Sequence record: MT446416.1
Length of the DNA stretch: 64,000 nucleotides
Source of the DNA: Escherichia virus TH47
Direction: 5' to 3' (one strand)
The translations under genes were made by a program, and so were the position numbers. The notes under the pieces are model-generated. The model ran no database searches and had not been told where the DNA came from. It saw nothing but the letters and a program-made list of their open reading frames with translations. Of the stretch, positions 4,882-19,243 are shown in pieces. Position 1 is the stretch's first letter; each line of letters starts with the position of its first letter.

Positions 4882-4901
4882 TTGATTATCCTTAGTTACC
4901 A

Positions 4902-4955: not shown

Positions 4956-4989
4956 GTACTTTAATATAAAAGTATTTGAAAAATAATTG

Positions 4990-5018: not shown

Positions 5019-5024
5019 ACCTAC

Positions 5025-5118: not shown

Positions 5119-5122
5119 TGTA

Positions 5123-5344: not shown

Positions 5345-5363
5345 TGTATTTTCCTCATTACCA

Positions 5364-5422
5364 GGGAGAACCATTTCTCCCCTCTATGTAAACTATTATA
5401 CAGTACTGGAAACTAATTGCAA
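5364..5422 (-). promoter_or_regulatory. early promoter + stem-loop module
   Basis: TTGCAA-N16-TATAAT; hairpin GGGAGAACCATTTCTCCC. Confidence 0.6.
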
Positions 5423-5534
5423 GTACTTAATGGTAAGATCCGCAACGGTTGCAGTAGTTTTATTTGTTCGATCATGATGCTTACTCCTGGTTAAAGGCGG
5501 GAACCATTCCCCGCCATTGTCACAGTACTGAATA

Positions 5535-5774
5535 TTACATTCCAACCATTGCAGCACGGATCGCAGTAGTGCTATACTTGAATCCGTCCGGCGTTGTAGT
5601 AGTACCGTTGGCTTTTAATCTGCGGTACATACATTCCGCTGCAATATCTTTCGTTTTACTTTGAGCGATGCAATTTTGAGCAATCCGGTACAATGATTCA
5701 TCGTTATTGATCCAAAGGCTTACATTCCAATGAGTTTTGTTTTTGTGTCCGTTGTAAGTTTTAGTACTAGCCAT
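5535..5774 (-). CDS. hypothetical protein (79 aa), paralog of 7563..7790
   Basis: shared motif T(K)T(F/Y)NGHKNxxHWNVSLWINNDESLY and C-terminal AAMVGM; GAGGA RBS. Confidence 0.7.
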   Translation of the reverse strand: MASTKTYNGHKNKTHWNVSLWINNDESLYRIAQNCIAQSKTKDIAAECMYRRLKANGTTTTPDGFKYSTTAIRAAMVGM

Positions 5775-5795
5775 TTTTTAATCCTCTTATATAGT

Positions 5796-5852
5796 GGGGA
5801 ACTATTCCCCACCTGATGTAAAGTATTATACGCTTTTAAACTTAGTTTGCAA
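5796..5852 (-). promoter_or_regulatory. early promoter + stem-loop module
   Basis: TTGCAA-N16-TATAAT; hairpin GGGGAACTATTCCCC; near-identical to module 7153-7209. Confidence 0.6.
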
Positions 5853-5863
5853 GTACTTTTTAA

Positions 5864-6475
5864 TTAATATGCGATTGATTCTACTACGCCATCAATAACA
5901 TTGAATTGATATTCGTTACCCTCAATCAGTGCCGTAATGTTTTCAGTAGTGAATTGATCCTTATATGCATTCTCTAAATCACGGTAAAACTTGCGTGACA
6001 ATTCACGAATAGTATCAGTTAGTAGTTTCTCAAGCTCATTAACTAACGTTTCTTGTTTTGAGGTTAAATCAGTGTAAGCCGATTCAATGTACCCGCTTAC
6101 AGTGTTCTCATGCGAGTAATGGGAGTGAGATCGCTTTACACTCATCGCCAAATCATCTTCATTCAGCAGGTGACGGATTGAGCGATACTTAGTTAATGCT
6201 CTTACCTTGCGTAAAAACTTCACTGCGTCAACGTGGTCAGTACTGATTGATGCACCGTCACCCTGGGACCAAAAACCACTGAATTGTATTTCAGCGTCAT
6301 TAATGCCATATTCTGGTAGTACTGTTTCTTTATAGTATTCAATTTCACTTTCAGAAAAATAATCGTCGTTTGTGTTTTTTTCACGTTCCCGAACCAGTTC
6401 GATAGCTGACGTTTTTTGTTCTGCGTTCAATTCAGAAAAATCCATAACATAAGTAGTAGTAGTGATAGTTTTCAT
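5864..6475 (-). CDS. hypothetical acidic protein (203 aa)
   Basis: ATG with GAGGG RBS; Asp/Glu-rich; two tandem promoters upstream. Confidence 0.65.
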   Translation of the reverse strand: MKTITTTTYVMDFSELNAEQKTSAIELVREREKNTNDDYFSESEIEYYKETVLPEYGINDAEIQFSGFWSQGDGASISTDHVDAVKFLRKVRALTKYRSIRHLLNEDDLAMSVKRSHSHYSHENTVSGYIESAYTDLTSKQETLVNELEKLLTDTIRELSRKFYRDLENAYKDQFTTENITALIEGNEYQFNVIDGVVESIAY

Positions 6476-6507
6476 TTTGTAACCCTCATTCAGTAGTTGA
6501 TGTAAGT

Positions 6508-6535
6508 ATTATACGCTTTTAAAAACAATTGTCAA
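6508..6535 (-). promoter_or_regulatory. sigma70-like promoter
   Basis: TTGACA-N16-TATAAT directly upstream of 5864..6475. Confidence 0.55.
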
Positions 6536-6586
6536 ACTATTTTATCAGGGGAGTTTTTCGTATGCCTTACTCCTGGGCTACTCAAC

Positions 6587-6653
6587 GGGGAGTTACTTAT
6601 TTCGTTCCCCGTCCTGATGTAATACATTATACGCCGTTAAACATAGTATGCAA
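6587..6653 (-). promoter_or_regulatory. early promoter + stem-loop module (second, tandem)
   Basis: TTGCAT-N16-TATAAT; hairpin GGGGAGTTACTTATTTCGTTCCCC; no ORF between it and the next promoter. Confidence 0.5.
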
Positions 6654-6696
6654 GTACTTTTTAAAATAGTTTTCAGTACTGAATAGTAAAAAGGTA

Positions 6697-6725
6697 TTGA
6701 CAGCACTATCCAGTACTGGCATAAT
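6697..6725 (+). promoter_or_regulatory. plus-strand promoter (CCAGTACTGG class)
   Basis: TTGACA-N17-CATAAT; followed by CCCACCGGGTGCA at 6747-6759. Confidence 0.5.
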
Positions 6726-6840
6726 ATACCCCATGACAACAGCTAACCCACCGGGTGCACAATTGTAACTGTACTAAACTACTTTTTCTATAGATACACT
6801 CCCGCACCCCGTGGGCCAAATTGTTCGTTTCAATAGATAC

Positions 6841-6869
6841 ATTATGCCAGTACTGACAAAATAAGTCAA
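6841..6869 (-). promoter_or_regulatory. minus-strand promoter (CCAGTACTGG class), convergent with 6697-6725
   Basis: TTGACT-N17-CATAAT on minus strand; followed by inverted CCCACGGGGTGCGG box (6804-6817). Confidence 0.5.
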
Positions 6870-6899
6870 TACTGGCAATTGTAAAGATTTGTAAACTAC

Positions 6900-7130
6900 T
6901 TATACTGCAATCGCGTCCAGGCTATAATAATAATAAGTGCCGTATTGGTGTACTTTATTACCTTTTATTTCAGTACTGAATGAATCCGAACGATTAGCAT
7001 ATGATGTTAATTTAAAGTACTTTGCTTTACTAATACGTTGCCATACACCGCAGATCCGCTGTAAGTAAGTAGTTTTATTAGTGGTAGTATCTTTTACGGT
7101 TTTAACTTCGGTCATATACATATTAGCCAT
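6900..7130 (-). CDS. hypothetical protein (76 aa)
   Basis: ATG at 7130 with AAGAGGA RBS; module upstream. Confidence 0.6.
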   Translation of the reverse strand: MANMYMTEVKTVKDTTTNKTTYLQRICGVWQRISKAKYFKLTSYANRSDSFSTEIKGNKVHQYGTYYYYSLDAIAV

Positions 7131-7152
7131 TTTTTTAATCCTCTTATGTAGT

Positions 7153-7209
7153 GGGGAAGTATTCCCCATCTGATATAAAGTATTATACGCTTTTAAACTT
7201 AGTATGCAA
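7153..7209 (-). promoter_or_regulatory. early promoter + stem-loop module
   Basis: TTGCAT-N16-TATAAT; hairpin GGGGAAGTATTCCCC. Confidence 0.6.
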
Positions 7210-7217
7210 GTACTTTT

Positions 7218-7481
7218 TTATAGTACTGCAATCTTTTTAGTACGGTACACGGTAACGCGATTGCCCTTGCGGTCGTGCTTTATTTCTACTACTCGCCGCG
7301 ATACACTATCAGGACTTTTTAACGCCGCCAACCAGTACTGTAAAGATCTGGCTTTACTTTGCTTTACTACCGCCCAACGTTTACCACGTTCCGATTGTCC
7401 GCCCATATCTTTAAACGTCGCCCCGTCCAGACGTGCGGCGATCCGTGCTTGTTCACGCGTCACAAAGTACATAATATTCAT
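7218..7481 (-). CDS. hypothetical basic protein (87 aa)
   Basis: ATG start; promoter-like TTGCAC...TATAAT upstream. Confidence 0.55.
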   Translation of the reverse strand: MNIMYFVTREQARIAARLDGATFKDMGGQSERGKRWAVVKQSKARSLQYWLAALKSPDSVSRRVVEIKHDRKGNRVTVYRTKKIAVL

Positions 7482-7562
7482 GCTGTTACCCCATCGTTGA
7501 CGTATAAAAGAAATCTATTATAAAGTACTATCACCGTGCAATAGTACTTTAAATATATTCTA

Positions 7563-7790
7563 TTACATTCCAACCATCGCCGCACGCACGCTTGATTTGC
7601 TATAACGTGCCCCATCAGGCGTGTGAGTACCTAAAAGGCGTAACATCCGCTCAACCGCTTTATCTCGCGTGTTGGTGCTTTTAATACTTTCCAGGGCCAA
7701 TTGGTACAGTGATTCATCGTTATTGATCCAAAGGCTTACATTCCAATGGTTGTAGTTTTTATGGCCGTTGAAAGTTTTAGTAGTAGTCAT
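7563..7790 (-). CDS. hypothetical protein (75 aa), paralog of 5535..5774
   Basis: paralog motifs as above; AAGAGGAA RBS. Confidence 0.7.
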   Translation of the reverse strand: MTTTKTFNGHKNYNHWNVSLWINNDESLYQLALESIKSTNTRDKAVERMLRLLGTHTPDGARYSKSSVRAAMVGM

Positions 7791-7810
7791 TTTTAATTCC
7801 TCTTAAGTGC

Positions 7811-7870
7811 AGCGGGAACCATTCCCGCTCTCGATGTAATACATTATACGCTATTTGATAGTACTGTCAA
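7811..7870 (-). promoter_or_regulatory. early promoter + stem-loop module
   Basis: TTGACA-N16-TATAAT; hairpin AGCGGGAACCATTCCCGCT; about 50 nt identical to module 8270-8330. Confidence 0.6.
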
Positions 7871-7883
7871 ACTAATTTTTAAC

Positions 7884-8246
7884 TTATTCGTAAATTTTGC
7901 CACTGTCAGCCCATACCAGGAAACGAGGCATATTATCCCATGCATCTTGTTTTAAATTTAAACCGTGTAATACTTCTGTACTTTCCATTCCTGGTACTGG
8001 TTTACTATACACCGCGAACATTTCACCCATATACTGATAAGCCATCGTTAAATCACTGGCGATCATCTTATGGATCATCGCATCAAGCATCACGGTAGCG
8101 GCGTATTGTTCACGCTTAAGCGGCAACATTGCAATAAGTCCACGATAAGCTGAAATGTGAATTTTTACCGTTTCTGCCGGAAGATCTTTCATCTCGTCGC
8201 GGAAGTTAACCAGGTTAGCAATAATTTTATTGATTTGTGTCGCCAT
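7884..8246 (-). CDS. hypothetical protein (120 aa)
   Basis: ATG with RBS; module upstream. Confidence 0.65.
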   Translation of the reverse strand: MATQINKIIANLVNFRDEMKDLPAETVKIHISAYRGLIAMLPLKREQYAATVMLDAMIHKMIASDLTMAYQYMGEMFAVYSKPVPGMESTEVLHGLNLKQDAWDNMPRFLVWADSGKIYE

Positions 8247-8269
8247 CGTTTTTAATCTCTCTTAAAGTG

Positions 8270-8330
8270 CAGCGGGAACCATTCCCGCTCTCGATGTAAT
8301 ACATTATACGCCGTTAAACATAGTATGCAA
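8270..8330 (-). promoter_or_regulatory. early promoter + stem-loop module
   Basis: TTGCAT-N16-TATAAT; hairpin AGCGGGAACCATTCCCGCT. Confidence 0.6.
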
Positions 8331-8380
8331 GTACTTTCTACAAATACTTTTAAAATAGTTTTCTTTCTATATAGGGGAAC

Positions 8381-8432
8381 TATCTTTCAGTACTATCTTT
8401 CAGTACTATCATTCAGTACTATCATTCAGTAC
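8381..8432. repeat. 4 x 13-bp direct repeat TATC(T/A)TTCAGTAC
   Basis: four contiguous units read directly. Confidence 0.85.
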
Positions 8433-8596
8433 TGAATCAATCCACTAAATCATCCCTATACCCCGTAAAACGGCCTCAGACGCATTCTAACGCATTAATA
8501 CACCTAAGCTATACATTTGCACCATTCCAATCATTCCAGGGCTTTACGGGCCGTTGAAACGCGTTAAATTATTTTCAATTATTTTGTTTTTAGGTA

Positions 8597-8624
8597 TTGA
8601 CTTGATCCTGAAAAAGCGTATAAT
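8597..8624 (+). promoter_or_regulatory. plus-strand sigma70-like promoter
   Basis: TTGACT-N16-TATAAT; CCCACAGGGTGCGG box about 30 nt downstream. Confidence 0.5.
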
Positions 8625-8813
8625 TACTACATAAGCCGGACACAAGGCACTAACCCACAGGGTGCGGAATTACGCCCAAAATTCAAGATATAAAAAAAGG
8701 ATACACTCCCGCACCCTAGCAGGTCAACGCACTTTCTCAGTACTGAAATATAGTACCATAGTACTTGCCAGGATAGCAAGCAAATTAATTAAAACTTTTT
8801 TGCTTCCAGGGTA

Positions 8814-8841
8814 TTGCTTTATTTTTTCAGTACTGTATAAT
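8814..8841 (+). promoter_or_regulatory. plus-strand promoter
   Basis: TTGCTT-N16-TATAAT; CCCACCGGGTGCA box at 8870-8882. Confidence 0.45.
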
Positions 8842-8937
8842 AGTTTCATCAAGTCGAGAAAGACTCAAGCCCACCGGGTGCATAGTTACGCCCAAAATTC
8901 AGTACTGAAAAAATTTTTAAAATATCTGTCCAGGCCG

Positions 8938-8966
8938 TTGACATTGCCCCCAGTTTATAAGATAAT
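8938..8966 (+). promoter_or_regulatory. plus-strand promoter
   Basis: TTGACA-N17-GATAAT; two GGGGAA...TCCCC-type hairpins downstream. Confidence 0.45.
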
Positions 8967-9059
8967 GATTCCAGATTCAGAAAAATCTAACTCCAGATAC
9001 TGCGGGGAAACTATCCCCACGCGGTAGGGGAACTATTGGAAAAAACAAAATAAAATTTT

Positions 9060-9200
9060 GATTTAGCCGTCTATACTTCCAGACGTGTAACCATCTAGCC
9101 GTTTAGCCGTCCAAACGTCTAGCCATCCAGCCATCCAGAAATCTAGCCGTTTAGCCGTCTAGATGGATAGCCATCTTTACTTCCATACTTCTGGAGGTCT
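9060..9200. repeat. iteron cluster (TAGCCRTY x about 9) with CCAAAATCC repeats just downstream
   Basis: tagccgtc / tagccgtt / tagccatc units within about 130 bp, interleaved with tctaga-type palindromes. Confidence 0.8.
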
Positions 9201-10099
9201 AGACATATCTACGTCCAAAATCCACCCAGGGTTACTACACCCAAAATCCGTCAGTACTATACCATAGATCTATCTTTTGAAAGGGAGTATTCAGTACTGC
9301 CATCATAGCCCTCACTATGTTACCCTAGGAGGATGAAGACTATCATGTAGTACTGAATACTGTTAGAGGGAATCCACCAGCTTGTGCTGGTGGCATAATG
9401 CTTTAGATTAAAATCAGTACTGACACCATTCTGTTAATATCAGTACTGTTATTACGATTTTCATATGAGGTTCAAAAAGATGTACCACCACAGGAGGAAC
9501 TATCTTTTCTGTACTGTCTCACGACAGGAGGTAGAGTAAATGAATTGTTCGCAGCAACTCATCTCTCTATGTAGAACATTATACAGTACTGAATCATAAT
9601 GTCAATAACTTTCTTTCACCATTCAGTACTGATATTCTTGAGAACTACCCGTCTACAAACATCATTATATCCCACAAATCATAAACGTCCCAACGTAAAT
9701 TTCAACTTTCGAAGATCCAACTTTTATTTCATAGGTACTCCAAAATTTTTAGGATCGAGATTTAGGATGGAGTACTAACCAACTTTTTGCTGGAGCCTCA
9801 AGGGGTAATTGAATTTTACCCCGAAGGGTAAAAGGGTAATTGAAATTAAGGTGAAAGTAATAATTCAGTACTAATCATTGCGTGATTACTTTTGATTACA
9901 TTTGATGTAATTTGCAAAATGGAAAAGGAGCTTGGAAACTAAAAAGTACGGTAGACTTCCTCTGCCTACTTAGTGGGATATCGACACCTTCAGTACTGAA
10001 TACTTTTGGGGCAGTACTGCTACGTTCTTGATTAAACGTGCACATTCCTGTACTCTATTACACTCTAGTACTCACTACTGATCAGTACTGATCACTACA

Positions 10100-10150
10100 G
10101 TGATTATAAATGATTACTTAAATGTTTATATATGATTACTTATGATTACT
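10100..10150. repeat. ATGATTACTTA direct repeats (3 copies)
   Basis: read directly. Confidence 0.7.
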
Positions 10151-10154
10151 TATG

Positions 10155-10175
10155 ACAAAGAGAAGCCAAAAGCTT
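10155..10175 (-). terminator. terminator of small-gene array
   Basis: hairpin GAGAAGC-nnnn-GCTTCTC followed by T-rich tract on minus strand. Confidence 0.5.
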
Positions 10176-10312
10176 CTCTGTAGAGTTACGGGGTTTAGCC
10201 TGGAGAGAATCCTAGTGATCGCATTTGTCCAGGCTGAATTTTAACAATTCGCCTGTACATAAAGGTTGTTCACTAGGAGCTTCCCCAGTCTCTATGTGCT
10301 CTATATGTTGAA

Positions 10313-10522
10313 TTACTTCCTATATATAAGTATTAACATATAGTAGTACTGATTATGCTGTACATTCTCTTTAATATTATAAGGGTCTATAGCAATCTCG
10401 GTACATCTGTTAAATGCATATCTATTAAATGCCAGTACTATTAGATTGTTAACCCATGCTTGTTCGTTTTCTTTTAGTTTACTTATATAGTACTCTTTAT
10501 ACTCTTTATACTCTTTATGCAT
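10313..10522 (-). CDS. small leader-family protein (69 aa)
   Basis: N-terminal MHKEYKEYKEYYISKL (9-bp unit repeated 3 times); C-terminal hydrophobic YxLILIY. Confidence 0.6.
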   Translation of the reverse strand: MHKEYKEYKEYYISKLKENEQAWVNNLIVLAFNRYAFNRCTEIAIDPYNIKENVQHNQYYYMLILIYRK

Positions 10523-10535
10523 AGTATTATCTCTA

Positions 10536-10718
10536 TTAATATGATAGTACTAGTGTTAGTACTGAGCACAATTGTTCTTTATAGTTCTTAGGGTATATAG
10601 AATCTTTTATGCACTCATTGAAGTGCCATAGGTATAATCTTGGGTCGCATTCTTTATATATTTTTACGGGGACGAATGTTAGTTTTCTTATATAGAAGTC
10701 TTTATGTTCTTTATTCAT
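10536..10718 (-). CDS. small leader-family protein (60 aa)
   Basis: MNKEHKDFYIRKL leader. Confidence 0.6.
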   Translation of the reverse strand: MNKEHKDFYIRKLTFVPVKIYKECDPRLYLWHFNECIKDSIYPKNYKEQLCSVLTLVLSY

Positions 10719-10920
10719 ATAGGAATAGTATACCTATGATGCCTGAGTACAGGTTAGTACTGTTATTATTGTCGTTTGCGTTTAAAGTCATTTGAATACA
10801 ATTATTGTAGCATAATCTGCCGAAATATGTATCAGTACTTAAAGGTGGTGTAGTTCTTAGAAACATTTGTTCTGATGTACTGAGGTGTTTGGAGTAGTAT
10901 TCTTTATGTTCTTTATTCAT
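10711..10920 (-). CDS. small leader-family protein (69 aa)
   Basis: MNKEHKEYYSKHL leader; body paralogous to 11285..11491 (CYNNCIQ...YSGIIGILFLYE). Confidence 0.65.
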   Translation of the reverse strand: MNKEHKEYYSKHLSTSEQMFLRTTPPLSTDTYFGRLCYNNCIQMTLNANDNNNSTNLYSGIIGILFLYE

Positions 10921-10925
10921 ATTAG

Positions 10926-11111
10926 TTAGTGTCTGTATATAAGTAATAGTAAGAATACGTACTGCACCTGTTCATCTTTAGTATTGAGTACTGTACGTAT
11001 TGCGTCATGGAACAAGAATATAGTACTTGGGTCATTAGAATTTAAGGGGTTTACGGGGACGGCGTGTTTGTAGTTCCCTTTAACAAATTGTATATAGTAT
11101 TCTTTATACAT
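10926..11111 (-). CDS. small leader-family protein (61 aa)
   Basis: MYKEYYIQFV leader. Confidence 0.6.
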   Translation of the reverse strand: MYKEYYIQFVKGNYKHAVPVNPLNSNDPSTIFLFHDAIRTVLNTKDEQVQYVFLLLLIYRH

Positions 11112-11112
11112 A

Positions 11113-11292
11113 TTAGTACCTGAATATTAGGGCGAGAATGTAGTACATATAATTTTGGTTCACAGCACAGTCAGTATGGTCAATGAATTGTTGGGTCTTT
11201 TTCTTATCCTTGAAATCTATTGGGTTTAGTAGTATAAGCATTTGGGAGTTTATATCCAGATGGCTTACGTAGAATTCTTTATAGTTATTCAT
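11113..11292 (-). CDS. small leader-family protein (59 aa)
   Basis: MNNYKEFYVSHL leader; ATGAATAA start/stop overlap with upstream gene; below ORF-track cutoff. Confidence 0.5.
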   Translation of the reverse strand: MNNYKEFYVSHLDINSQMLILLNPIDFKDKKKTQQFIDHTDCAVNQNYMYYILALIFRY

Positions 11293-11491
11293 AGAAGAAT
11301 ATTAGTCCTATTACACCTGAGTACATAATATTTTTGTTATTGTATTCTAATGCGTCTAGAGTACTACGTATACAATTATTAAAGCAATCTCTGGCGTGTT
11401 GTGTATCTAAACGTAAAGGTGATACACTCCTTAGAAACATTTGTTCTTCGTTGCTGAGGTATTTGGTGTAGAATTCTTTCTGTTCGTTCAT
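11285..11491 (-). CDS. small leader-family protein (68 aa)
   Basis: MNEQKEFYTKYL leader; CFNNCIR...YSGVIGLIFFYE. Confidence 0.65.
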   Translation of the reverse strand: MNEQKEFYTKYLSNEEQMFLRSVSPLRLDTQHARDCFNNCIRSTLDALEYNNKNIMYSGVIGLIFFYE

Positions 11492-11501
11492 ATTGGCCTC
11501 T

Positions 11502-11690
11502 TTAGTACACGAAAGCTAGGTACAGTACATGATACAGTACTTGATTATAGTTGTAATAATTTATCACGCATTTAGTGCACGTAATGAAGTAGTCTTTTTC
11601 GTAGTTTATTTCTATACCGCGAGGTTCATCTTCTAACAGATTACCTTGAAGGTGCGGTGGTAAATCTTTTATGTAGTATTCTTTATACAT
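11502..11690 (-). CDS. small leader-family protein (62 aa)
   Basis: conserved start MYKEYYIKDL at 11690; ORF-track N-terminal extension is read-through of the upstream copy. Confidence 0.55.
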   Translation of the reverse strand: MYKEYYIKDLPPHLQGNLLEDEPRGIEINYEKDYFITCTKCVINYYNYNQVLYHVLYLAFVY

Positions 11691-11691
11691 A

Positions 11692-11882
11692 TTAGTACCT
11701 GAATATAAGTAGGATAGTGTTATATAGTTGGTCATAACTACTACTATTTTCTATACTGCGTTCTATGCAGTTATTGAATCCCAGTACTGCCAAATCGTTA
11801 TCCAGGGGGGGACTTTATATCTGGCGTAGTATTCAAAAATGCTGGGGAGAAATTGTGTGTAGTATTCTTTGTGGTTGTTCAT
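11692..11882 (-). pseudogene. frameshifted leader-family member (poly-G7 tract 11805-11811)
   Basis: starts MNNHKEYYTQFL; frame breaks at the homopolymer; one extra C/G restores a 63-aa ORF ending ...GFNNCIERSIENSSSYDQLYNTILLIFRY. Confidence 0.5.
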
Positions 11883-11892
11883 ATTGTTCTCT

Positions 11893-12075
11893 TTAGTACT
11901 TATATATTAGGGCGAGGATGTAGTACAGTTTATATATTCTATCCTCGTACATTAGGGTGTACTTAGTACATTCTTGAAACATTGTTTTTGCGTCATCTTT
12001 TATGCCCAATGCAACGTTTGGTATATGGCTCTGTAGATGCATTGGAAGTTTCTCTATGTAGTATTCTTTATACAT
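11893..12075 (-). CDS. small leader-family protein (60 aa)
   Basis: conserved start MYKEYYIEKL at 12075 (ATGTATAA overlap with stop of 12068..12739). Confidence 0.55.
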   Translation of the reverse strand: MYKEYYIEKLPMHLQSHIPNVALGIKDDAKTMFQECTKYTLMYEDRIYKLYYILALIYKY

Positions 12076-12739
12076 AGTTTGAAATATACGTAATGAGGTG
12101 ATGAATTTTCTTATCAGTACTGATAAGTTCCTGTACATGTTTTGTTAGTTTGTACGCGTTTTTATAGAGTCCTGGATTATCGATTACAGTACTGTACATG
12201 AATTCTTCTTCTGGTGTTAATTCTTTGTTTTGTAGTTCTTTTAGGAATTGCAGTACTGTAATAGTTTCTTCTGTACGTTGCTGTTGGAAGAAATGCATGT
12301 TATCGTGTACTTTTTCTGAACCAATGCAGTACATATCGCCGATTTGGAATTGTGCTGTACGGATATCATGGGTGCTATTACAATTCCCGAAGAAGTATAC
12401 ATTCCCGAAAGATAGAATTATAGTGCACGGGATATTATCCAGGTGCATATAGATATAGATAGATGCGTCCTCTAGTGCTTTTGTGCTGGTATTAGTACTC
12501 AATACTTTTAAATCAGTATTATAGATATTCATATAATGAACAGCTATATTATTTTTCTTCATGTACAATTCAAGGTTCTTTGATACGTTAACTCCATTTG
12601 TACTGGTTTTTTTACTTTTCTTTAGGTTCTTTAGTACATTAGGGTGATAAGTATATGCATTAGTAATAGATTCAGCCTGGATGGATTGCAAGTACTTAAA
12701 GTGCTGTAGGTATCGTTTACTTTGTGGATTGAGTTTCAT
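12068..12739 (-). CDS. long leader-family protein (223 aa)
   Basis: N-terminal KRYLQHFKYL leader-like; C-terminal domain paralogous to 21657..22307. Confidence 0.6.
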   Translation of the reverse strand: MKLNPQSKRYLQHFKYLQSIQAESITNAYTYHPNVLKNLKKSKKTSTNGVNVSKNLELYMKKNNIAVHYMNIYNTDLKVLSTNTSTKALEDASIYIYMHLDNIPCTIILSFGNVYFFGNCNSTHDIRTAQFQIGDMYCIGSEKVHDNMHFFQQQRTEETITVLQFLKELQNKELTPEEEFMYSTVIDNPGLYKNAYKLTKHVQELISTDKKIHHLITYISNYV

Positions 12740-12750
12740 ATTGGTTTCCT

Positions 12751-12930
12751 TTATATAGATGCGAGTGCGAGGATTTCCCTGTAGGGATTATCTTGTGTTA
12801 GTGCGTGATGAATGCAGCTATTGAGATTAATATTTTTAGTACTGTTAGTTGCTAGGTTGTAGTACTTCACGAAGGTGTCGTACATGAAACGGTCTTTAAT
12901 GCTTATGTGTTCTATATAGTATTCTTGCAT
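12751..12930 (-). CDS. small leader-family protein (59 aa)
   Basis: conserved start MQEYYIEHI at 12930. Confidence 0.5.
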   Translation of the reverse strand: MQEYYIEHISIKDRFMYDTFVKYYNLATNSTKNINLNSCIHHALTQDNPYREILALASI

Positions 12931-12995
12931 ATTATTCCTTAGATTTAGATTAGTTTTAGTACTTCTCTGTACGTGTACTTTTCGTTTTGTGCTTC

Positions 12996-13118
12996 TACTG
13001 TACATGATAGAAAGTATCGTTTTTATCTCTTTTGTTCCCGACTGTGTAGTACCTTTGGAATTGATTATAAATGTATCTATCTTTGTGCTGAAGTTTATAG
13101 ATATAGAATTCTTGCATA
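12996..13118 (-). pseudogene. truncated leader-family copy
   Basis: MQEFYIYKL... ORF of 40 codons; flanking sequence duplicates 12921-12980. Confidence 0.35.
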
Positions 13119-13125
13119 GAGTACC

Positions 13126-13311
13126 TTAGATAGAGATTAGTTTTAGTACTTCAATATATGTGCGGTACTCTGCTTTAATTAAATTTGTACACACTGTAAG
13201 GGAACTTCTTTGTATAAGTTTATTGCCGCTTTTATACGCATTTCTCCACACATAGAGATGAGATCTTTCTGGCATAGATAGTTTATTTGTATAGTACTCA
13301 AATGTATTCAT
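13126..13311 (-). CDS. small leader-family protein (61 aa)
   Basis: start MNTFEYYTNKL at 13311. Confidence 0.5.
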   Translation of the reverse strand: MNTFEYYTNKLSMPERSHLYVWRNAYKSGNKLIQRSSLTVCTNLIKAEYRTYIEVLKLISI

Positions 13312-13321
13312 AGTATTCTCT

Positions 13322-13507
13322 TTACATATCAATAAGTTTCAGTACTGCTCTGTACGTGTACTTAGTTGTTAGTGTTTCTTTTATAGCAGTACAGAAGTAA
13401 TGTTGTTTGTCTCTAGTACTGACGCGTTTGTAGTACCATACATGGGAGTTGTGGCTGTACTTGTCCCTGTCGGATAGTTTTTGGTAATAGTAGCTTTTAT
13501 GATTCAT
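13322..13507 (-). CDS. small leader-family protein (61 aa)
   Basis: MNHKSYYYQKL leader. Confidence 0.55.
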   Translation of the reverse strand: MNHKSYYYQKLSDRDKYSHNSHVWYYKRVSTRDKQHYFCTAIKETLTTKYTYRAVLKLIDM

Positions 13508-13618
13508 TGTAATGTAATTAGCCTTATTATGTTAAAGTACTCGGTCCCTGGTACACCTTGTAGAATATTATCAACTACATTTATTTGGTGCAGGATGAGT
13601 ACATTCGGTGCGGATCTT

Positions 13619-13717
13619 TTAAGGTTTTTTTAAAGTACTGAATTCTTGTTTAAGGATGTTCTGCACATCTTTAGGGAGAATATCTAAGTAGTACTGATGA
13701 ATGTTCATAGTTTTCAT
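13619..13717 (-). pseudogene. truncated leader-family copy
   Basis: MKTMNIHQYYLDILPKD... stops after 32 codons; resembles N-terminus of 13916..14128. Confidence 0.35.
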
Positions 13718-13728
13718 ATAGTACTCTT

Positions 13729-13914
13729 TTAGAACTTAAAGATGAGGTTCATGATAGATAAGTACTTAGTTTCAGGAAATTGATGTTCTATTGCATAACG
13801 TGTCGCCAGTCTGAAGTCAAATTTATAAAAGGGAGTATTCATATCCAGAGGTTCATTGGGGAATGAATCTCGGTATTGCTTGTGCAGCTTACTACAGTAG
13901 AATTCTTTATACAT
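13729..13914 (-). CDS. small leader-family protein (61 aa)
   Basis: MYKEFYCSKL leader. Confidence 0.6.
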   Translation of the reverse strand: MYKEFYCSKLHKQYRDSFPNEPLDMNTPFYKFDFRLATRYAIEHQFPETKYLSIMNLIFKF

Positions 13915-13915
13915 A

Positions 13916-14128
13916 TTAGTGCTCGATTAATAGGGTAAGGATGTAATAGTATTGCATACTTTCTACCCCTTGTAAAGCATTTCTTATTTTATTATTCCTG
14001 TACGAGTTCAAGAGTTTAGGACAATGTTTGAGGTTTATATAATTATTTTGTGTATACAGTAGGCTTTCTCGTAGACCTTTTGTTGGTAGTGCATCGATGT
14101 AGTACTGTTCAATGTTCATAGTGTTCAT
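13916..14128 (-). CDS. small leader-family protein (70 aa)
   Basis: MNTMNIEQYYIDAL leader. Confidence 0.55.
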   Translation of the reverse strand: MNTMNIEQYYIDALPTKGLRESLLYTQNNYINLKHCPKLLNSYRNNKIRNALQGVESMQYYYILTLLIEH

Positions 14129-14352
14129 AGAGCTACCAGTACTAAGATTTTTGATAATTGTTTATTGCTATCCCCGCAGATGTTGCTGTGTAAAATACTC
14201 GCGGTGAGGGTATCAAGTGCACTGTTCAGCATAAGGTTACATCCAGTACTGTTATGTGTTTTTAGCTCTATCAGCCACGAACTATCCGCGAGAAACTTCG
14301 CGTACTCTAGTTCAGTTAGAGTATTGATGTAGTACTTAAGTGTAGTTGTCAT
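14125..14352 (-). CDS. small leader-family protein (75 aa), first gene of array
   Basis: MTTTLKYYINTL; AAGGAG RBS; promoter 14378-14406. Confidence 0.6.
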   Translation of the reverse strand: MTTTLKYYINTLTELEYAKFLADSSWLIELKTHNSTGCNLMLNSALDTLTASILHSNICGDSNKQLSKILVLVAL

Positions 14353-14455: not shown

Positions 14456-15577
14456 ATGTTACCTTTTGTTAGAATGTTTGATTATGGAAATGAAGCACCT
14501 GATCCTAGTTCGGGATTTCGAATAATAAGTACAGGAGACGCATTACTATTAATTACTGAGAGTGGTGATTTGTGGGTGCGTGGTTATAACCGTTATGGCA
14601 AGTTAGGTATAGGTAATAACACCACTACCTATGTACTTGATTGGACGAAGGTTAGAAGTGATGTGAAGTTTGCGTGTGGTAGTGGATTGGTAACAGTTAT
14701 CTTTACTAAGGATAATCGTATATTGTACTGTGGTGACAAATGGTTTGAAACGGGTGGTGTTGGTAGTGCACAGATTTTCACATGGACAGATGTTACGCAC
14801 CAATTTGGGGTAGTAGATTTGAGTACAGTAAGGGATATGAAAATGTCTTATTACACGATTGGATTATTGACTACTAATAATCAATTATACGCTAAGGGAT
14901 TTGATAATAACCTATCATTTGGTGGGGTTACTAATAAGGCGACTGCTGTGTTTATTGCGAATAATGTACAAGAGTTGTATACGAGTTTAGTTAGTACTAT
15001 CTACGTTGATACAAGTGGTATATTACATCGTTGTGGCATGAGTGATAACGGTTCGTTGGGTAATAATGGTAGTTTAACTTCGTATCTAAGTTATTCACAG
15101 CCTGGTATGACGATTAAGGACATTGGAATGATGACTACGAACACTGGGTTATTATATACTGATTCTAGTGCACGCACGAGATATTTTATTGCTGGACAGA
15201 ACTTGAATAAACAGATGGGTAATGCGGCGTCTGCGAGTGCCATTACGAGTACTTACACAGAGCTTTCTGGTAGTGTTGATAAGTTTTCTTCTTTATGGGA
15301 GAATGATGGGATATTGATGACATTTGCTGTGGGTAAGAACACTAATCAGTTATTTTATGCTGGGACGAATACTTTTCATGCGAGTGGTGGTGAATCTTCA
15401 TATGCGGATACATATGAGTTAGTCCCGATGGTGTTTAATGACATACAGGAAGTGTTATGTGCACAGCGTTTATCGGTGGTACATGATTCTACGAAGTGGT
15501 ATTACTGTGGTGATGCTAATTCAATGTATGGTTTACCGGACGTAAGTACTTTTACTGAGTTACCGTTGCCCTTTTAA
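14456..15577 (+). CDS. RCC1-like repeat (beta-propeller) protein, paralog 1
   Basis: 373 aa; leader MLPFVRMFDYGN; repeated G-x-N-x-x-G-x-LG-x-G blocks. Confidence 0.7.
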   Translation: MLPFVRMFDYGNEAPDPSSGFRIISTGDALLLITESGDLWVRGYNRYGKLGIGNNTTTYVLDWTKVRSDVKFACGSGLVTVIFTKDNRILYCGDKWFETGGVGSAQIFTWTDVTHQFGVVDLSTVRDMKMSYYTIGLLTTNNQLYAKGFDNNLSFGGVTNKATAVFIANNVQELYTSLVSTIYVDTSGILHRCGMSDNGSLGNNGSLTSYLSYSQPGMTIKDIGMMTTNTGLLYTDSSARTRYFIAGQNLNKQMGNAASASAITSTYTELSGSVDKFSSLWENDGILMTFAVGKNTNQLFYAGTNTFHASGGESSYADTYELVPMVFNDIQEVLCAQRLSVVHDSTKWYYCGDANSMYGLPDVSTFTELPLPF

Positions 15578-15585
15578 TAATAGGT

Positions 15586-15616
15586 CAGTACTGAAATATG
15601 TACTGGTATTTTTTGT
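15586..15616 (+). terminator. candidate terminator
   Basis: CAGTA...TACTG hairpin followed by T-run. Confidence 0.4.
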
Positions 15617-15654
15617 AAATACTATATAATTATTTTAATTTTGGAGATTTAATC

Positions 15655-16824
15655 ATGTTACCTTTTGTTAGAATGTTTGATTATGGGAATGTAGCACCTG
15701 CACCACCGAAATTTAAAAAAATACTCACCAATAACTACAACGTTGCAGTTTTAACAAGCAGTGGGGATTTATATGTACGTGGGAATAATCAAAACGGTCA
15801 ATTGGGTTTAGGTCACAAAGAAAAAGTTACTACATGGACGTTTAGTACTTCTGGTGTTCAAGATTTTTGGTTTGGTAGTTCAACACTAGTGGTTAAAAAA
15901 ACCGATGATGAAATATGGTACAGTGGACAGTCAACCTCTGTTGGTATGCCAGGGGCATCTGTATCGGGGTGGACTTCTGCCATGCCGACATTCAATACAT
16001 TAACATTACCAATATTAGATATGGCAGTTAGTAATCAGACTACAAGTGTATTACTATCAGACCGAACAATATGGAGTACTGGGGTAGGAAGTAATGGTCA
16101 ATTGGGTAATGGAACTGCGACGAACAACATTTCAGGTAAATTCGTCAAAAGTACTGTTTCGACAGAAGAAGAACAATTACCAGTTAAATTGTTTGCCAGT
16201 AATTTAATGCATGGATATGTTACCGAGAACGGCTGGTTATACTACACTGGGCAACCCAATGCAGTTAGCACTAATGGCAGTGCGGTATATAGTGTTTATA
16301 CTAGTGCTCCTATTAGTCTAAGGAATACCATTAATATCAAGTACTATACAAATAATGGAACTTCGATGGCGATGGCTATTGGTACAGATCCAAATGGTAA
16401 GACCGTACTTGCTAATGGTGGCCCTAGGATATTTGGTGCACAGGCTGACGGAGTAAATGGTCAACTAAGTAATATTAGGCCATTTGCTGTTCAAACCGAA
16501 TCATTGATGCCTCCTGGGGATTTGGTAAGTATTGCTCATAATACTTCATATTATAACCAAGTTATTGCTACAACAGATGGTATATATTGTTGCGGCTACA
16601 ACCAATCTACACACGCTGGTATGTTAGGCATTGGTACATCTACTAACGCATTAGTATATACCAAAGCAATCGTACCTGATGGTTTTGATTATAGTAAATC
16701 GCAAATGGCAGGTGAGTATAACCGTACTTATATAACTGATGGTAATTTTGTATATAGTACAGGGACAGATGTCACATATGGTGGCATTAATAGCTTAGAA
16801 TTTGTAATAGATTCACCATTATAA
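15655..16824 (+). CDS. RCC1-like repeat protein, paralog 2
   Basis: 389 aa; MLPFVRMFDYGN; NGQLGLG / NGQLGNG motifs. Confidence 0.75.
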   Translation: MLPFVRMFDYGNVAPAPPKFKKILTNNYNVAVLTSSGDLYVRGNNQNGQLGLGHKEKVTTWTFSTSGVQDFWFGSSTLVVKKTDDEIWYSGQSTSVGMPGASVSGWTSAMPTFNTLTLPILDMAVSNQTTSVLLSDRTIWSTGVGSNGQLGNGTATNNISGKFVKSTVSTEEEQLPVKLFASNLMHGYVTENGWLYYTGQPNAVSTNGSAVYSVYTSAPISLRNTINIKYYTNNGTSMAMAIGTDPNGKTVLANGGPRIFGAQADGVNGQLSNIRPFAVQTESLMPPGDLVSIAHNTSYYNQVIATTDGIYCCGYNQSTHAGMLGIGTSTNALVYTKAIVPDGFDYSKSQMAGEYNRTYITDGNFVYSTGTDVTYGGINSLEFVIDSPL

Positions 16825-16832
16825 AAAGAAAA

Positions 16833-16862
16833 GCCAGTACTTGATACTGGCTTTTCTTTTTG
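16833..16862 (+). terminator. rho-independent terminator
   Basis: GCCAGTACTTGATACTGGC hairpin + TTTTCTTTT. Confidence 0.65.
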
Positions 16863-16897
16863 TATTAAATATAGTATAATGAATAAAGGAGGGAATT

Positions 16898-18007
16898 ATG
16901 TTACCTTTTGTTAGAATGTTTGATTACGGGAATATTGCACCTGAAGCTCCAAAGATAAAGAAAGTACTGTGCGGTCGTGATAATTTGTACGTCCTCTATG
17001 GCGATGGCTCACTTTATGGTTGTGGGGATAATGCGTATTTTCAGTTAAACGTTAAAAATGCAGCAACAAGAAATACTTGGATATTAATTTCAGAAGGTGT
17101 TACTGATGTATGGGCTGGGGCGTACAATATTCTTTATCTCAAGGGTGAAGAATTCATAATGCATGGAGTTACCACACAATTAGGCACAGGAGATACTATG
17201 ATTCCGTTGGGTGGTTTGAATGTTACTTCTTCATTTCCACATATATCTAATATTAAAATGATATCAATTGGTGCAGATACAATGCACTACGTTGATGCTA
17301 GTGGTTCGATTGTTTATGGTAGAGGCATGAATGGTAACTATTCACTCGGTGGTGGGTATTCCACGGCTCAGAGTACTTTTGTTTCAGTTATTAATACCGG
17401 AGCTAATACAGTCCTTGATATATTGGGTACACAGAATAACACATTAATATTAACATCAAATGGTGAACTTCTCGGTTGTGGGAGTAGTGGGTATGGTTCA
17501 CTTGGCGTAAGTCCAGGACAGTATACTACACTAGTAAGCAGGTTAACCAGTGTTAAACTGTTTGGTGGTAACAGTACTGGTACTCTTGCTTATTCAGCCA
17601 GCAATATATACAACGCAGGTTGGCAGTATGTTGGTCAACTTGGTAACGGTATTACAACGAACACACTACTATATCCATTTGCATTAAACTCCACTACTAT
17701 TGATAGTAAGATACATAAAATATCAAAATCAAGTACAACTTCACGTGTTAATATGTACGCAACAACCGAAGGAAAGATATATAGTACTGGTGAATTTGGT
17801 AGAAATGGTTCTGGTGGTAGTTTGAGTAGATTCACCAATACACTAACTTTAGATAATTACAACCCAGAAAAATCAGCATTATACACATGTGCAAATTTTA
17901 GTATAGTATTTGATGGTAATAATCAAATTTATGCTTGTGGTTCTTTTTTGTATGTGCCAGGTCCTATTACCACGAACTCATGGTCTGCAATTACAATGCC
18001 GAAATGA
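16898..18007 (+). CDS. RCC1-like repeat protein, paralog 3
   Basis: 369 aa; MLPFVRMFDYGN; upstream TATAAT-AAGGAGG cassette. Confidence 0.7.
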   Translation: MLPFVRMFDYGNIAPEAPKIKKVLCGRDNLYVLYGDGSLYGCGDNAYFQLNVKNAATRNTWILISEGVTDVWAGAYNILYLKGEEFIMHGVTTQLGTGDTMIPLGGLNVTSSFPHISNIKMISIGADTMHYVDASGSIVYGRGMNGNYSLGGGYSTAQSTFVSVINTGANTVLDILGTQNNTLILTSNGELLGCGSSGYGSLGVSPGQYTTLVSRLTSVKLFGGNSTGTLAYSASNIYNAGWQYVGQLGNGITTNTLLYPFALNSTTIDSKIHKISKSSTTSRVNMYATTEGKIYSTGEFGRNGSGGSLSRFTNTLTLDNYNPEKSALYTCANFSIVFDGNNQIYACGSFLYVPGPITTNSWSAITMPK

Positions 18008-18021
18008 TACTATAAAACTAT

Positions 18022-18051
18022 GCCAGTACTTGATACTGGCTTTTCTTTTTG
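18022..18051 (+). terminator. rho-independent terminator
   Basis: same GCCAGTACTTGATACTGGC hairpin + T-run. Confidence 0.65.
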
Positions 18052-18085
18052 ATTAAATATAGTATAAAGAATAAAGGAGGGAATT

Positions 18086-19243
18086 ATGTTACCTTTTGCT
18101 AGAATGGTTAAGTACGGAAATAGAGTTCCAGTACCTGTTGGGATTAAGAAGATAAACTCTGTCGGTACTAGTCAGATGATATTGACGAATACAGGCGACG
18201 TGTATGCATATGGTCAAAACACCAACTGGAGATTTGGTAGTGGTAGTTCTAGTGAGATTAGTGGGGGAGTTCCACAGATGGTAATGCAGGGTGTATCGGA
18301 TATGATATGTCATCCCAGATGTACATTATTAATAATGTCTGATGGACGTTATCTTGCTGCTGGGAACTCTACAGTACTGGGAGGTAGTTCAGGATTGAAT
18401 TATGTAGATGTTAGTTCTAAGTTCGCTACATTAGGAACTATCAAGAAAATTGATTTTACCCGAAGGAACAGTACTTCGTATACAGTATATGCATTAAACA
18501 CTGATGGTGATTTATATGGTATTGGATATGGAAACCGTGGTCAATTGGGGTTAGGTAAAAATAATAGTTTAGGTGCATTTACGAAGATAAACACCAATTG
18601 CAGGAATTTTGTAAGTTGTTCTTATGAGACGATAGTGGCTCTTAAGAATGATAATACTGCGTGGTTCTGTGGAAATTATTCGTTTATTAGTGGTAATACT
18701 GATGTTACTACATTTACTAACCTTGGTGATACTGCAATACTTAATATCTACGGTAATGGTTTAAATGGTGAGTTGTTATACACAAAAAGTGATGGTTTAT
18801 ATTTCCGTGGTTTAGCGTCGAACCGATATGGTTATTCATTCAGTTTAGAACAGCGTGCAATTAATAGCAAGATTACATTGCCGTTTGCTTATGATGTAAG
18901 TACGTTTAAGATTCTCACAGATGAACAGACAACAACCGTCAGTGTGTGGATTTCCAATTCAGACGTTCATTATGGGGTTGGTGCAAATAGCAGTAACACT
19001 AACAGAATGGGATTCACCAACCCAACTATGCCAGGTGCTGGTTCAAACTTTACATTACAGGATTTCAGTTCAGTGCAGGGCACTATTGAGACTGTTGTTA
19101 GTGCAAGTTATTATACAACTCTTATAAACTCTAATGGGAAAGTATTTGGCAGTGGGCCTTTTGATGATGATTCTTTAACTTATTTTCCTGGGAATAATCC
19201 AAAACTGATGAACTACACAGAAATTAAATTGAATATAAATTAG
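18086..19243 (+). CDS. RCC1-like repeat protein, paralog 4
   Basis: 385 aa; MLPFARMVKYGN; NRGQLGLG. Confidence 0.7.
   Translation: MLPFARMVKYGNRVPVPVGIKKINSVGTSQMILTNTGDVYAYGQNTNWRFGSGSSSEISGGVPQMVMQGVSDMICHPRCTLLIMSDGRYLAAGNSTVLGGSSGLNYVDVSSKFATLGTIKKIDFTRRNSTSYTVYALNTDGDLYGIGYGNRGQLGLGKNNSLGAFTKINTNCRNFVSCSYETIVALKNDNTAWFCGNYSFISGNTDVTTFTNLGDTAILNIYGNGLNGELLYTKSDGLYFRGLASNRYGYSFSLEQRAINSKITLPFAYDVSTFKILTDEQTTTVSVWISNSDVHYGVGANSSNTNRMGFTNPTMPGAGSNFTLQDFSSVQGTIETVVSASYYTTLINSNGKVFGSGPFDDDSLTYFPGNNPKLMNYTEIKLNIN

What the first reader, a model, noticed from the sequence alone, without database searches (positions are those of the whole stretch)
11692..11882. Poly-G(7) tract frameshift splits an otherwise intact family member
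The copy starting MNNHKEYYTQFL at 11882 terminates shortly after a run of seven G at 11805-11811 (C7 on the coding strand). Adding one nucleotide to the run restores a 63-aa ORF ending ...GFNNCIERSIENSSSYDQLYNTILLIFRY, which fits the family consensus. This is either a fresh pseudogene, a sequencing length error, or a slippage-prone phase-variable or programmed-frameshift site.
Basis: seen in the sequence. Interest (0 to 1): 0.6.

Follow-up and report, generated by a model that had tools for sequence, protein, structure and literature searches.

The report
Frameshifted small gene in jumbo phage
One copy of a many-copy small gene family in an E. coli jumbo phage is broken by two extra C's in a run of C's that is five long in every relative, so it is most likely a recent, ordinary gene-killing slippage mutation and not a programmed frameshift or an on/off switch.

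Summary
On the minus strand an ATG at 11882 opens MNNHKEYYTQFL..., a C7 run lies at 11811-11805, and the frame stops after 39 aa at 11763. One added C gives a 63-aa ORF.

The window is an Asteriusvirus-like (PBECO4/121Q) E. coli jumbo phage. The gene belongs to a minus-strand tandem array of 17 small genes (phrog_11711, unknown function).

Relatives show C8 is not the ancestral state. In 17 other genomes or contigs the site is 5 nt long (CCCCC, CCCTC or CCCTA) and the ORF is intact at 60-62 aa. All 17 database protein orthologues are 60 or 62 aa, and none reads VPPL. The window therefore carries a +2 expansion, C5 to C7.

Two more array members are also broken at homopolymers (A6 to A7, A6 to A5). 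None of about 160 copies in nine relatives is frameshifted. The window's 107 other orthologous ORFs are intact, and its other homopolymer length changes are almost all intergenic. This favours real mutations over random sequencing error.

C_CCC_CCC is in phase as a -1 slippery heptamer. It has no stimulatory structure (z = -0.18) and is not conserved.

Verdict: fresh pseudogene (~0.68), artefact (~0.18), functional recoding or phase variation (~0.06).

The parts
11763..11882 (-). Truncated 0-frame ORF of the frameshifted family member. It encodes 39 aa: 25 native N-terminal residues, an extra Pro, then 13 out-of-frame residues, ending at TAG.
11805..11811 (-). C7 homopolymer (G7 on the + strand). 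It is a +2 expansion of the 5-nt tract found in all relatives. It begins at a third codon position, so it reads GT[C CCC CCC], an in-phase X_XXY_YYZ heptamer.
11692..11804 (-). Out-of-frame remainder of the gene: 37 codons plus the TAA stop, LDNDLAVLGFNNCIERSIENSSSYDQLYNTILLIFRY. It is identical in protein sequence to the orthologue consensus and encodes helices 3 and 4 of the predicted fold.
10313..14352 (-). Tandem head-to-tail array of 17 small (59-75 aa) paralogous genes, interrupted by one 223-aa gene at 12068-12739. The five typical members scanned match phrog_11711; the sixth, the 75-aa gene at 14125-14352, does not. The finding is one member of this array.
13504..13717 (-). Second frameshifted array member, the orthologue of the 70-aa EcMJ_587. 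The run at 13625-13631 is A7, against A6 in relatives (+1), and the 0-frame stops after 32 aa.
12945..13117 (-). Third frameshifted array member, the orthologue of a 59-aa gene in BF17, fEgEco12, SP27 and vB_Ec-M-J. The run at 13020-13024 is A5, against A6 in relatives (-1), and the 0-frame stops after 40 aa.

Best explanation
The gene is a recently inactivated copy (a fresh pseudogene, or at best a truncated product) of a small four-helix protein of unknown function.

It belongs to a tandem multi-copy family (phrog_11711) in an Asteriusvirus-like E. coli jumbo phage.

Replication slippage lengthened an ancestral C5 tract to C7. This was either one +2 step or two +1 steps, and both C6 and C7 are out of frame.

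Translation now leaves the native frame after residue 25-26 and stops at 39 aa. The product lacks helices 3 and 4, the most conserved part of the fold.

The lesion is specific to this lineage and belongs to a local pattern of decay: three of the 17 array members in this genome carry homopolymer frameshifts.

Shown: the tract, the frame break, the ancestral state, the uniqueness of the lesion, and the lack of recoding signals.

Inferred: that the mutation is real and not an assembly error, that it arose by slippage, and that the truncated product is non-functional.

Because C_CCC_CCC happens to be in phase, a trace of the 63-aa product (well under 1%) may arise by unprogrammed -1 slippage.
For: Ancestral state. 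The tract is 5 nt and the ORF is an intact 60-62 aa in 17 other genomes or contigs: 14 phage records, two metagenome contigs and one Logan contig. The Logan contig L027 is the closest relative for this gene: 95.3% identical over 1577 nt and sharing the EYY N-terminus.

Protein databases. All 17 distinct orthologous proteins, seen on more than 160 contigs, are 60 or 62 aa and none reads VPPL.

Selection on the intact gene. Among the 13 distinct orthologous DNA sequences, all 180 nt long from HKEYY to the stop, 11 variable codons are purely synonymous and 8 change the amino acid. The intact gene is therefore under purifying selection in relatives.

Freshness. The window's downstream segment has no further lesion, which is consistent with a recent event.

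Argument against random error:
- All three frameshifts in the 64-kb window lie in the 4-kb array, while 107 other orthologous ORFs (38 kb, 172 runs of 5 or more) are intact. P is about 7e-4 under a uniform per-run error model.
- Homopolymer length differences elsewhere are almost all intergenic.
- Window-specific substitutions look selection-filtered: 270 synonymous to 266 non-synonymous, with a third-position excess of 142/128/346.

Loss of function. The AlphaFold2 model (pLDDT 92) has four helices, and the shift falls between helices 2 and 3.
Against: All three frameshifts sit in homopolymers and are unique to this genome, while about 160 copies in nine relatives have none. That pattern would also fit platform-specific homopolymer miscalls.

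No reads are available, and the window's own genome was not found in any collection for an independent check.

No experiment shows that the 39-aa product is inactive or that no full-length protein is made.
Confidence: 0.68

Rival explanations
1. Sequencing or assembly artefact. The true tract is C5 (or C8) and the gene is intact. The consensus miscalled the homopolymer length, as it did in the two A-runs of the other broken array members.
For: All three frameshifts are homopolymer length changes unique to this sequence. The downstream reading frame is perfectly preserved. One related record of doubtful quality, CMSTMSU (UNVERIFIED_ORG), shows single-base deletions in this same gene, so such artefacts do occur in this phage group.
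Against: Errors do not respect gene importance, yet none of 107 other orthologous ORFs with 172 runs of 5 or more is shifted (P about 7e-4).

The remaining homopolymer differences are almost all intergenic.

The window's unique substitutions carry a selection signature.

A +2 overcall of a 5-mer in a consensus is atypical for the platforms I know of. Ion Torrent and 454 mostly err by one base on longer runs, and Nanopore tends to shorten runs. This point rests on my own knowledge.

G/C runs are not systematically longer in the window: two are longer and two are shorter than in vB_Ec-M-J.
Confidence: 0.18
2. Functional recoding. C_CCC_CCC acts as a -1 ribosomal frameshift site, or as a transcriptional slippage site. 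The locus then makes both a 39-aa product and a 63-aa full-length protein in a set ratio.
For: The heptamer is in the correct phase. Sharma et al. 2014 (PMC4066793) list C_CCC_CCC among the more efficient -1 motifs in E. coli. A -1 shift yields exactly ...KVPPLDND..., the C8 product. 'Savior indel plus low compensatory frameshifting' is documented for the G-run of herpesvirus thymidine kinase (PMC5009743).
Against: The site is absent from all relatives, which encode the protein in one frame.

The 90 nt downstream fold no better than shuffles (z = -0.18), and I read no Shine-Dalgarno-like element upstream.

Motifs without stimulators gave only 2-10 times a 0.055% background in E. coli (PMC4066793).

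The two other frameshifted array members would need different shifts: +1 or -2 for one and a weak -1 for the other, by my reading. No common mechanism is therefore indicated.
Confidence: 0.05
3. Phase-variable contingency tract. The C run changes length at high frequency in the phage population and switches this family member on (C5 or C8) and off (C6 or C7).
For: A G/C run of 7 is long enough to be slippage-prone. A single +1 step to C8 would restore the frame. The tract has evidently changed length at least once in this lineage.
Against: No length polymorphism appears among 17 related DNA sequences or 17 protein variants. Five of the 13 distinct orthologous DNA sequences interrupt the run (CCCTC, CCCTA), which stabilises it. 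The only other frameshifted copy, in the unverified CMSTMSU record, still carries a run of five C's.

Known contingency loci keep long tracts of varying length across strains; this point rests on established knowledge.

The other G/C runs of 7 or more in the window are non-coding.
Confidence: 0.04

Closest known systems
Frameshift pseudogenes created by homopolymer slippage in multi-copy or accessory phage and bacterial genes
   Same: There is a lineage-specific length change in a mononucleotide run. Orthologues are intact and under purifying selection in relatives. No compensating signal is present. The affected gene belongs to a redundant paralogous family whose content varies between genomes.
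   Different: The change is +2 and not the usual single-base step. Three members of one array are hit in the same genome, while nine relatives have none. This hints at relaxed selection on the array in this lineage.
Herpes simplex virus thymidine kinase G-run 'savior indel' with low-level compensatory frameshifting (reviewed in Atkins et al. 2016, PMC5009743)
   Same: A G/C homopolymer of about 7 in a viral gene carries an indel that breaks the frame. The run itself is slippery enough to allow a trace of full-length product.
   Different: For thymidine kinase the indel has a demonstrated selective advantage and the frameshifting was measured. Here no advantage, no product and no measurement are known.
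Programmed -1 ribosomal frameshift sites of E. coli and its phages and insertion sequences (dnaX, IS911, IS3, tail-assembly chaperone G/GT)
   Same: An in-phase X_XXY_YYZ heptamer, C_CCC_CCC, is listed as efficient in E. coli by Sharma et al. 2014.
   Different: There is no downstream stem-loop or pseudoknot and no upstream SD-like element. The site is not conserved, because relatives encode the protein in a single frame. The 0-frame product has no evident role.
Phase-variable (contingency) homopolymer tracts, such as the poly-G/C tracts of Neisseria, Haemophilus and Campylobacter genes
   Same: A poly-C tract lies inside a coding sequence, and its length sets the reading frame.
   Different: No tract-length variation is seen among relatives. 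The ancestral tract is short (5) and often interrupted.

Membership tests
phrog_11711 small-protein family (tandem array of Asteriusvirus phages) | Full-length match to the family profile | tested here: met
   The repaired 62-aa sequence matches profile positions 1-62 of 62 at E = 1.4e-22. Four intact neighbours match at E = 5e-8 to 4e-20.
phrog_11711 small-protein family (tandem array of Asteriusvirus phages) | Location in the syntenic head-to-tail array, with orthologues in related phages | tested here: met
   Orthologue cluster 8 is present and intact in all nine relatives compared, at the same array position. It is annotated as 121Q gp260 and G17_00057.
Frameshift pseudogene | The reading frame is disrupted relative to intact orthologues that are under purifying selection | tested here: met
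   C7 is compared with a 5-nt tract in 17 related sequences. Variable codons split 11 synonymous to 8 amino-acid-changing.
Frameshift pseudogene | No functional product is made | not testable with these tools
   This needs proteomics or genetics. The structure model only shows that helices 3-4 would be lost.
Programmed -1 ribosomal frameshift site | Slippery heptamer X_XXY_YYZ in the 0-frame phase | tested here: met
   The C run starts at codon position 3, giving GT[C CCC CCC] TGG. The motif is listed as efficient in E. coli (PMC4066793).
Programmed -1 ribosomal frameshift site | Stimulatory element: a downstream stem-loop or pseudoknot, or an upstream SD-like sequence | tested here: not met
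   The 90 nt downstream fold at -13.3 kcal/mol, against a shuffle mean of -12.8 (z = -0.18). No GGAGG-like element is seen in the 30 nt upstream (read).
Programmed -1 ribosomal frameshift site | Conservation of the shift site and the two-frame gene architecture in relatives | tested here: not met
   All relatives encode the protein in one frame with a 5-nt tract.
Programmed -1 ribosomal frameshift site | Measured frameshifting efficiency above background | not testable with these tools
   This needs a reporter assay or mass spectrometry.
Phase-variable contingency locus | Hypermutable simple-sequence tract within the coding sequence or promoter | tested here: inconclusive
   C7 is present. That length is at the lower margin of tracts known to switch at high rates, a point that rests on my own knowledge.
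Phase-variable contingency locus | Tract-length polymorphism among related strains | tested here: not met
   The site is always 5 nt, and is interrupted in 5 of the 13 distinct orthologous DNA sequences. All database proteins are 60 or 62 aa.
Phase-variable contingency locus | Length heterogeneity within one population | not testable with these tools
   No reads are available.
Transcriptional slippage site | Long homopolymer run in the template. Productive bacterial examples are typically about 9 or more A or T (PMC5009743 and my own knowledge). | tested here: inconclusive
   The run is only C7, which makes a G/C-rich hybrid. No bacterial precedent was found in the text searched.

The most novel reading that the evidence does not exclude
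The C7 tract is a real and maintained feature. It makes this family member leaky or switchable, either through unstimulated -1 slippage on C_CCC_CCC or through C7 to C8 replication slippage in the phage population. Together with the two A-run frameshifts, this would mean the phage tunes the dosage of individual array members through homopolymer length.
Probability: 0.06. Interest if true: 0.5.

Novelty: new member of a known kind. Interest (0 to 1): 0.15.

Why it matters
The finding matters little by itself. It is an annotation point: one gene, and in fact three genes, of a hypothetical-protein array should be flagged as frameshifted in this genome.

Two modest values follow:
- The intact orthologues are under purifying selection in all relatives, yet three copies are lost here. 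This marks the phrog_11711 array as individually dispensable, in this lineage at least.
- The locus is a natural, in-phase C_CCC_CCC without stimulators in an E. coli phage. It could serve as a simple test case for unprogrammed frameshift 'rescue'.

Tried and rejected
Tests of the recoding and phase-variation readings:
- Programmed frameshift was rejected. No structure lies downstream and the site is absent from relatives.
- Phase variation was rejected for lack of tract-length variation among relatives.

Tests of assembly quality:
- A systematic G/C homopolymer over-call was rejected. Two G/C runs are longer and two are shorter than in vB_Ec-M-J, and the A/T runs are roughly balanced.
- A generally error-laden assembly was rejected. 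107 orthologous ORFs are intact, singleton substitutions carry a selection signature, and the other homopolymer indels are almost all intergenic.

Searches for the same lineage elsewhere:
- Exact-protein look-ups for five window proteins found only one 95%-identical Logan contig, which has C5.
- Gapped-pattern scans gave one IMG/VR contig and two metagenome contigs, all with a 5-nt tract, and no genome-collection hit.

Searches for the family's function:
- Pfam gave no hit and PHROGs gave only an unknown-function family.
- The AlphaFold2 model is confident, but Foldseek against PDB and BFVD found no analogue beyond the orthologue.

Other checks:
- A downstream restart at TTG 11793 (33 aa) was considered and dismissed, because I read no ribosome-binding site there.
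- A literature search for Asteriusvirus plus frameshift found nothing relevant.

Full report
**What is there**

Reading the minus strand, an ATG at 11882 opens MNNHKEYYTQFLPSIFEYYARYKV. A run of exactly seven C follows at 11811-11805, which is G7 on the + strand. The frame then reads PPWITIWQYWDSITA and stops at TAG 11765-11763, giving 39 aa.

I recomputed the repairs:
- C8 (+1) gives a 63-aa ORF ending ...GFNNCIERSIENSSSYDQLYNTILLIFRY.
- C5 (-2) gives a 62-aa ORF with the same tail.
- C6 is also out of frame.

**Context**

The window is 35% GC. It matches E. coli and Salmonella jumbo phages of the genus Asteriusvirus (PBECO4, 121Q, G17, BF17, vB_Ec-M-J and others). Identity is 87-92% in this region and 95-98% in more conserved parts. 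No record in the collection is the same genome.

The gene is one of 17 small genes (59-75 aa) packed head to tail on the minus strand from 14352 to 10313. One 223-aa gene interrupts the array. Members share an N-terminal KE[YF]Y motif and a hydrophobic ...LI[FY]RY tail.

Five typical members scanned match PHROG family phrog_11711 (unknown function) over its full length. A sixth gene scanned, the divergent 75-aa gene at 14125-14352, gave no match. Pfam has nothing.

An AlphaFold2 model of the orthologue P0001, built with the window's paralogues as the alignment, is confident (pLDDT 92). It shows four helices at residues 3-9, 14-21, 29-44 and 48-60. Foldseek found no analogue in PDB or BFVD other than the orthologue itself.

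The frameshift falls between helices 2 and 3. The 39-aa product therefore lacks the longer and better conserved half of the fold.

**The ancestral state is C5, not C8**

I extracted the orthologous site from 14 phage records, two metagenome contigs and one Logan contig.

- The stretch between AAAGT and TGGATAAC is 5 nt in all of them. It reads CCCCC, CCCTC or CCCTA, and UE-S1 reads CCCCCTC-GAT.
- The ORF is intact at 60 or 62 aa.
- The 13 distinct DNA sequences are all exactly 180 nt from HKEYY to the stop.
- The closest relative for this gene is Logan contig L027. It is 95.3% identical over 1577 nt, shares the window's EYY residues, and also has C5.
- In the protein collection the orthologue group holds 17 distinct sequences seen on more than 160 contigs. 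All are 60 or 62 aa with a single residue (Pro, or Leu in one variant) where C8 would give two Pro. None reads VPPL.

The window therefore carries a +2 expansion of a C5 tract.

The only other broken copy is in CMSTMSU, a record flagged UNVERIFIED_ORG. It has two single-base deletions at other positions in the gene.

Among the intact orthologues, 11 variable codons are purely synonymous and 8 change the amino acid. The gene is thus under purifying selection in relatives.

In the window, the 37 codons after the tract are still identical in protein sequence to the consensus. This fits a recent event.

**It is not alone**

I ran a tblastn of mechanical ORFs from vB_Ec-M-J against the window. I also made an orthologue table across ten arrays. 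Together they show two more frameshifted array members in the window.

- Window 13717-13504 has A7 at 13631-13625, where relatives have A6.
- Window 13117-12945 has A5 at 13024-13020, where relatives have A6.

None of the roughly 160 family copies in the nine other genomes is frameshifted.

**Real mutation or sequencing error?**

No reads are available, so I used indirect tests.

1. All three frameshifts lie in the 4-kb array. The 107 other orthologous ORFs of the window (38 kb, 172 homopolymer runs of 5 or more) are intact. If errors struck runs uniformly, the chance that all three fall in the array is about 7e-4.
2. The other homopolymer length differences between the window and three relatives are almost all intergenic. 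This is what selection-filtered real indels look like.
3. Codon changes unique to the window across 10,009 aligned codons split 270 synonymous to 266 non-synonymous. They show a clear third-position excess (142/128/346). This is broadly like the relatives' own unique changes, though with a somewhat higher non-synonymous share (0.99 against 0.56-0.82). The sequence is a naturally diverged genome and not a noisy one.
4. G/C runs are not systematically longer in the window.
5. From my own knowledge, a +2 overcall of a 5-mer in a consensus is atypical for common platforms.

Against this, three homopolymer frameshifts unique to one genome is also what platform error would look like. I leave about 0.18 on the artefact explanation.

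The window also carries two premature stop substitutions relative to vB_Ec-M-J.
- GAA to TAA at codon 54 of the gene at 39271-38891, which relatives annotate as a virion structural protein.
- TGG to TGA at codon 71 of 78 of the gene at 28273-28040.

Relatives carry occasional premature stops too. Point lesions of this kind are part of normal variation in this group.

**Programmed frameshift or phase variation?**

The C run begins at a third codon position, so the mRNA reads GT[C CCC CCC] TGG. This is an in-phase X_XXY_YYZ heptamer, and a -1 shift would give ...KVPPLDND..., the C8 product.

Sharma et al. 2014 list C_CCC_CCC among the more efficient -1 motifs in E. coli (PMC4066793). In the same study, motifs without stimulators reached only 2-10 times a background of 0.055%.

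Three observations count against a programmed site here.
- The 90 nt downstream fold no better than shuffles (z = -0.18).
- I read no SD-like element upstream.
- The downstream sequence is the same as in relatives that need no frameshift.

Conservation is the hallmark of programmed recoding, and it is absent.

Contingency loci show tract-length variation among strains. Here there is none, and 5 of the 13 distinct orthologous DNA sequences interrupt the run.

The two other broken genes would need different shifts, by my reading. No shared mechanism is suggested.

The most that can be said is that a trace of full-length product might arise by unprogrammed slippage. This would resemble the herpesvirus thymidine kinase G-run case reviewed by Atkins et al. 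2016 (PMC5009743).

**Verdict**

The finding is a lineage-specific C5 to C7 slippage frameshift that has recently inactivated one member of a redundant small-gene array.

This is an ordinary kind of event and a new instance of a known kind. The only mildly unusual point is that three members of the array are broken in this one genome while relatives keep all of theirs. That suggests relaxed selection on the array in this lineage, or, less likely, local sequence error.

Noticed in passing
window 13504-13717 (-), A7 at 13625-13631: A second member of the same array is frameshifted. It is the orthologue of the 70-aa EcMJ_587 and has A7 where vB_Ec-M-J, BF17 and fEgEco12 have A6. The 0-frame stops after 32 aa.
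   Followed up: yes
window 12945-13117 (-), A5 at 13020-13024: A third array member is frameshifted. It has A5 where BF17, fEgEco12 and two metagenome contigs have A6. The 0-frame stops after 40 aa.
   Followed up: yes
window 38891-39271 (-): The orthologue of a 127-aa protein, annotated in 121Q (gp199), WPEC3, fEgEco12 and others as a virion structural protein, carries an internal TAA. Codon 54 is GAA (Glu) in vB_Ec-M-J. The gene is otherwise 98-99% identical to relatives. No tRNA gene, and hence no suppressor, was found in the window.
   Followed up: partly
window 28040-28273 (-): A 78-aa gene, the orthologue of EcMJ_561, has TGA where vB_Ec-M-J has TGG at codon 71. This removes the last 8 residues.
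   Followed up: partly
window 1440-1495 and 3035-3090 (similar units recur through about 800-10300): Repeated intergenic units hold a G/C-rich hairpin (for example GGGAGG...CCCCCCCC, with C8 at 1462-1469 and C7 at 3055-3061). The conserved motif TCTCGATGTAAAACATTATAC follows. On the minus strand this reads as a TATAAT-like box upstream of the hairpin. The C-run lengths differ from vB_Ec-M-J by up to 2 nt. These are probably promoter and 5' stem-loop units of early small genes.
   Followed up: no
window 14456-23510 (+): A tandem array of eight paralogous 369-416 aa proteins, which relatives annotate as RCC1-like 'regulator of chromosome condensation'. One minus-strand ORF at 21657-22370 lies inside the array. 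It sits directly beside the small-gene array. vB_Ec-M-J has 14 RCC1-like copies, so copy number varies.
   Followed up: no
window about 32231-32238: About 560 nt present in vB_Ec-M-J (L017 37448-38009) are missing from the window. The missing stretch holds EcMJ_553, EcMJ_554 and the first 43 codons of EcMJ_555. Window 27080-31240 aligns only patchily to that relative.
   Followed up: no
L011 (CMSTMSU, MH494197.1) 345-530: This related record, flagged UNVERIFIED_ORG, has two single-base deletions in the orthologue of the finding's gene and one fewer A than UE-S1 in an A-run of the neighbouring gene. The record looks error-prone.
   Followed up: partly
orthologue of the finding in Turkey3, vB_Ec-M-J, UB, PBECO4, BF17, phAPEC6 and SP27 (L001-L005, L012, L013): The intact 60-62 aa orthologue is left unannotated in seven related records. 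It is annotated in 121Q (gp260), G17 and ELP-22. A longer shadow ORF on the opposite strand may be misleading the gene callers.
   Followed up: partly
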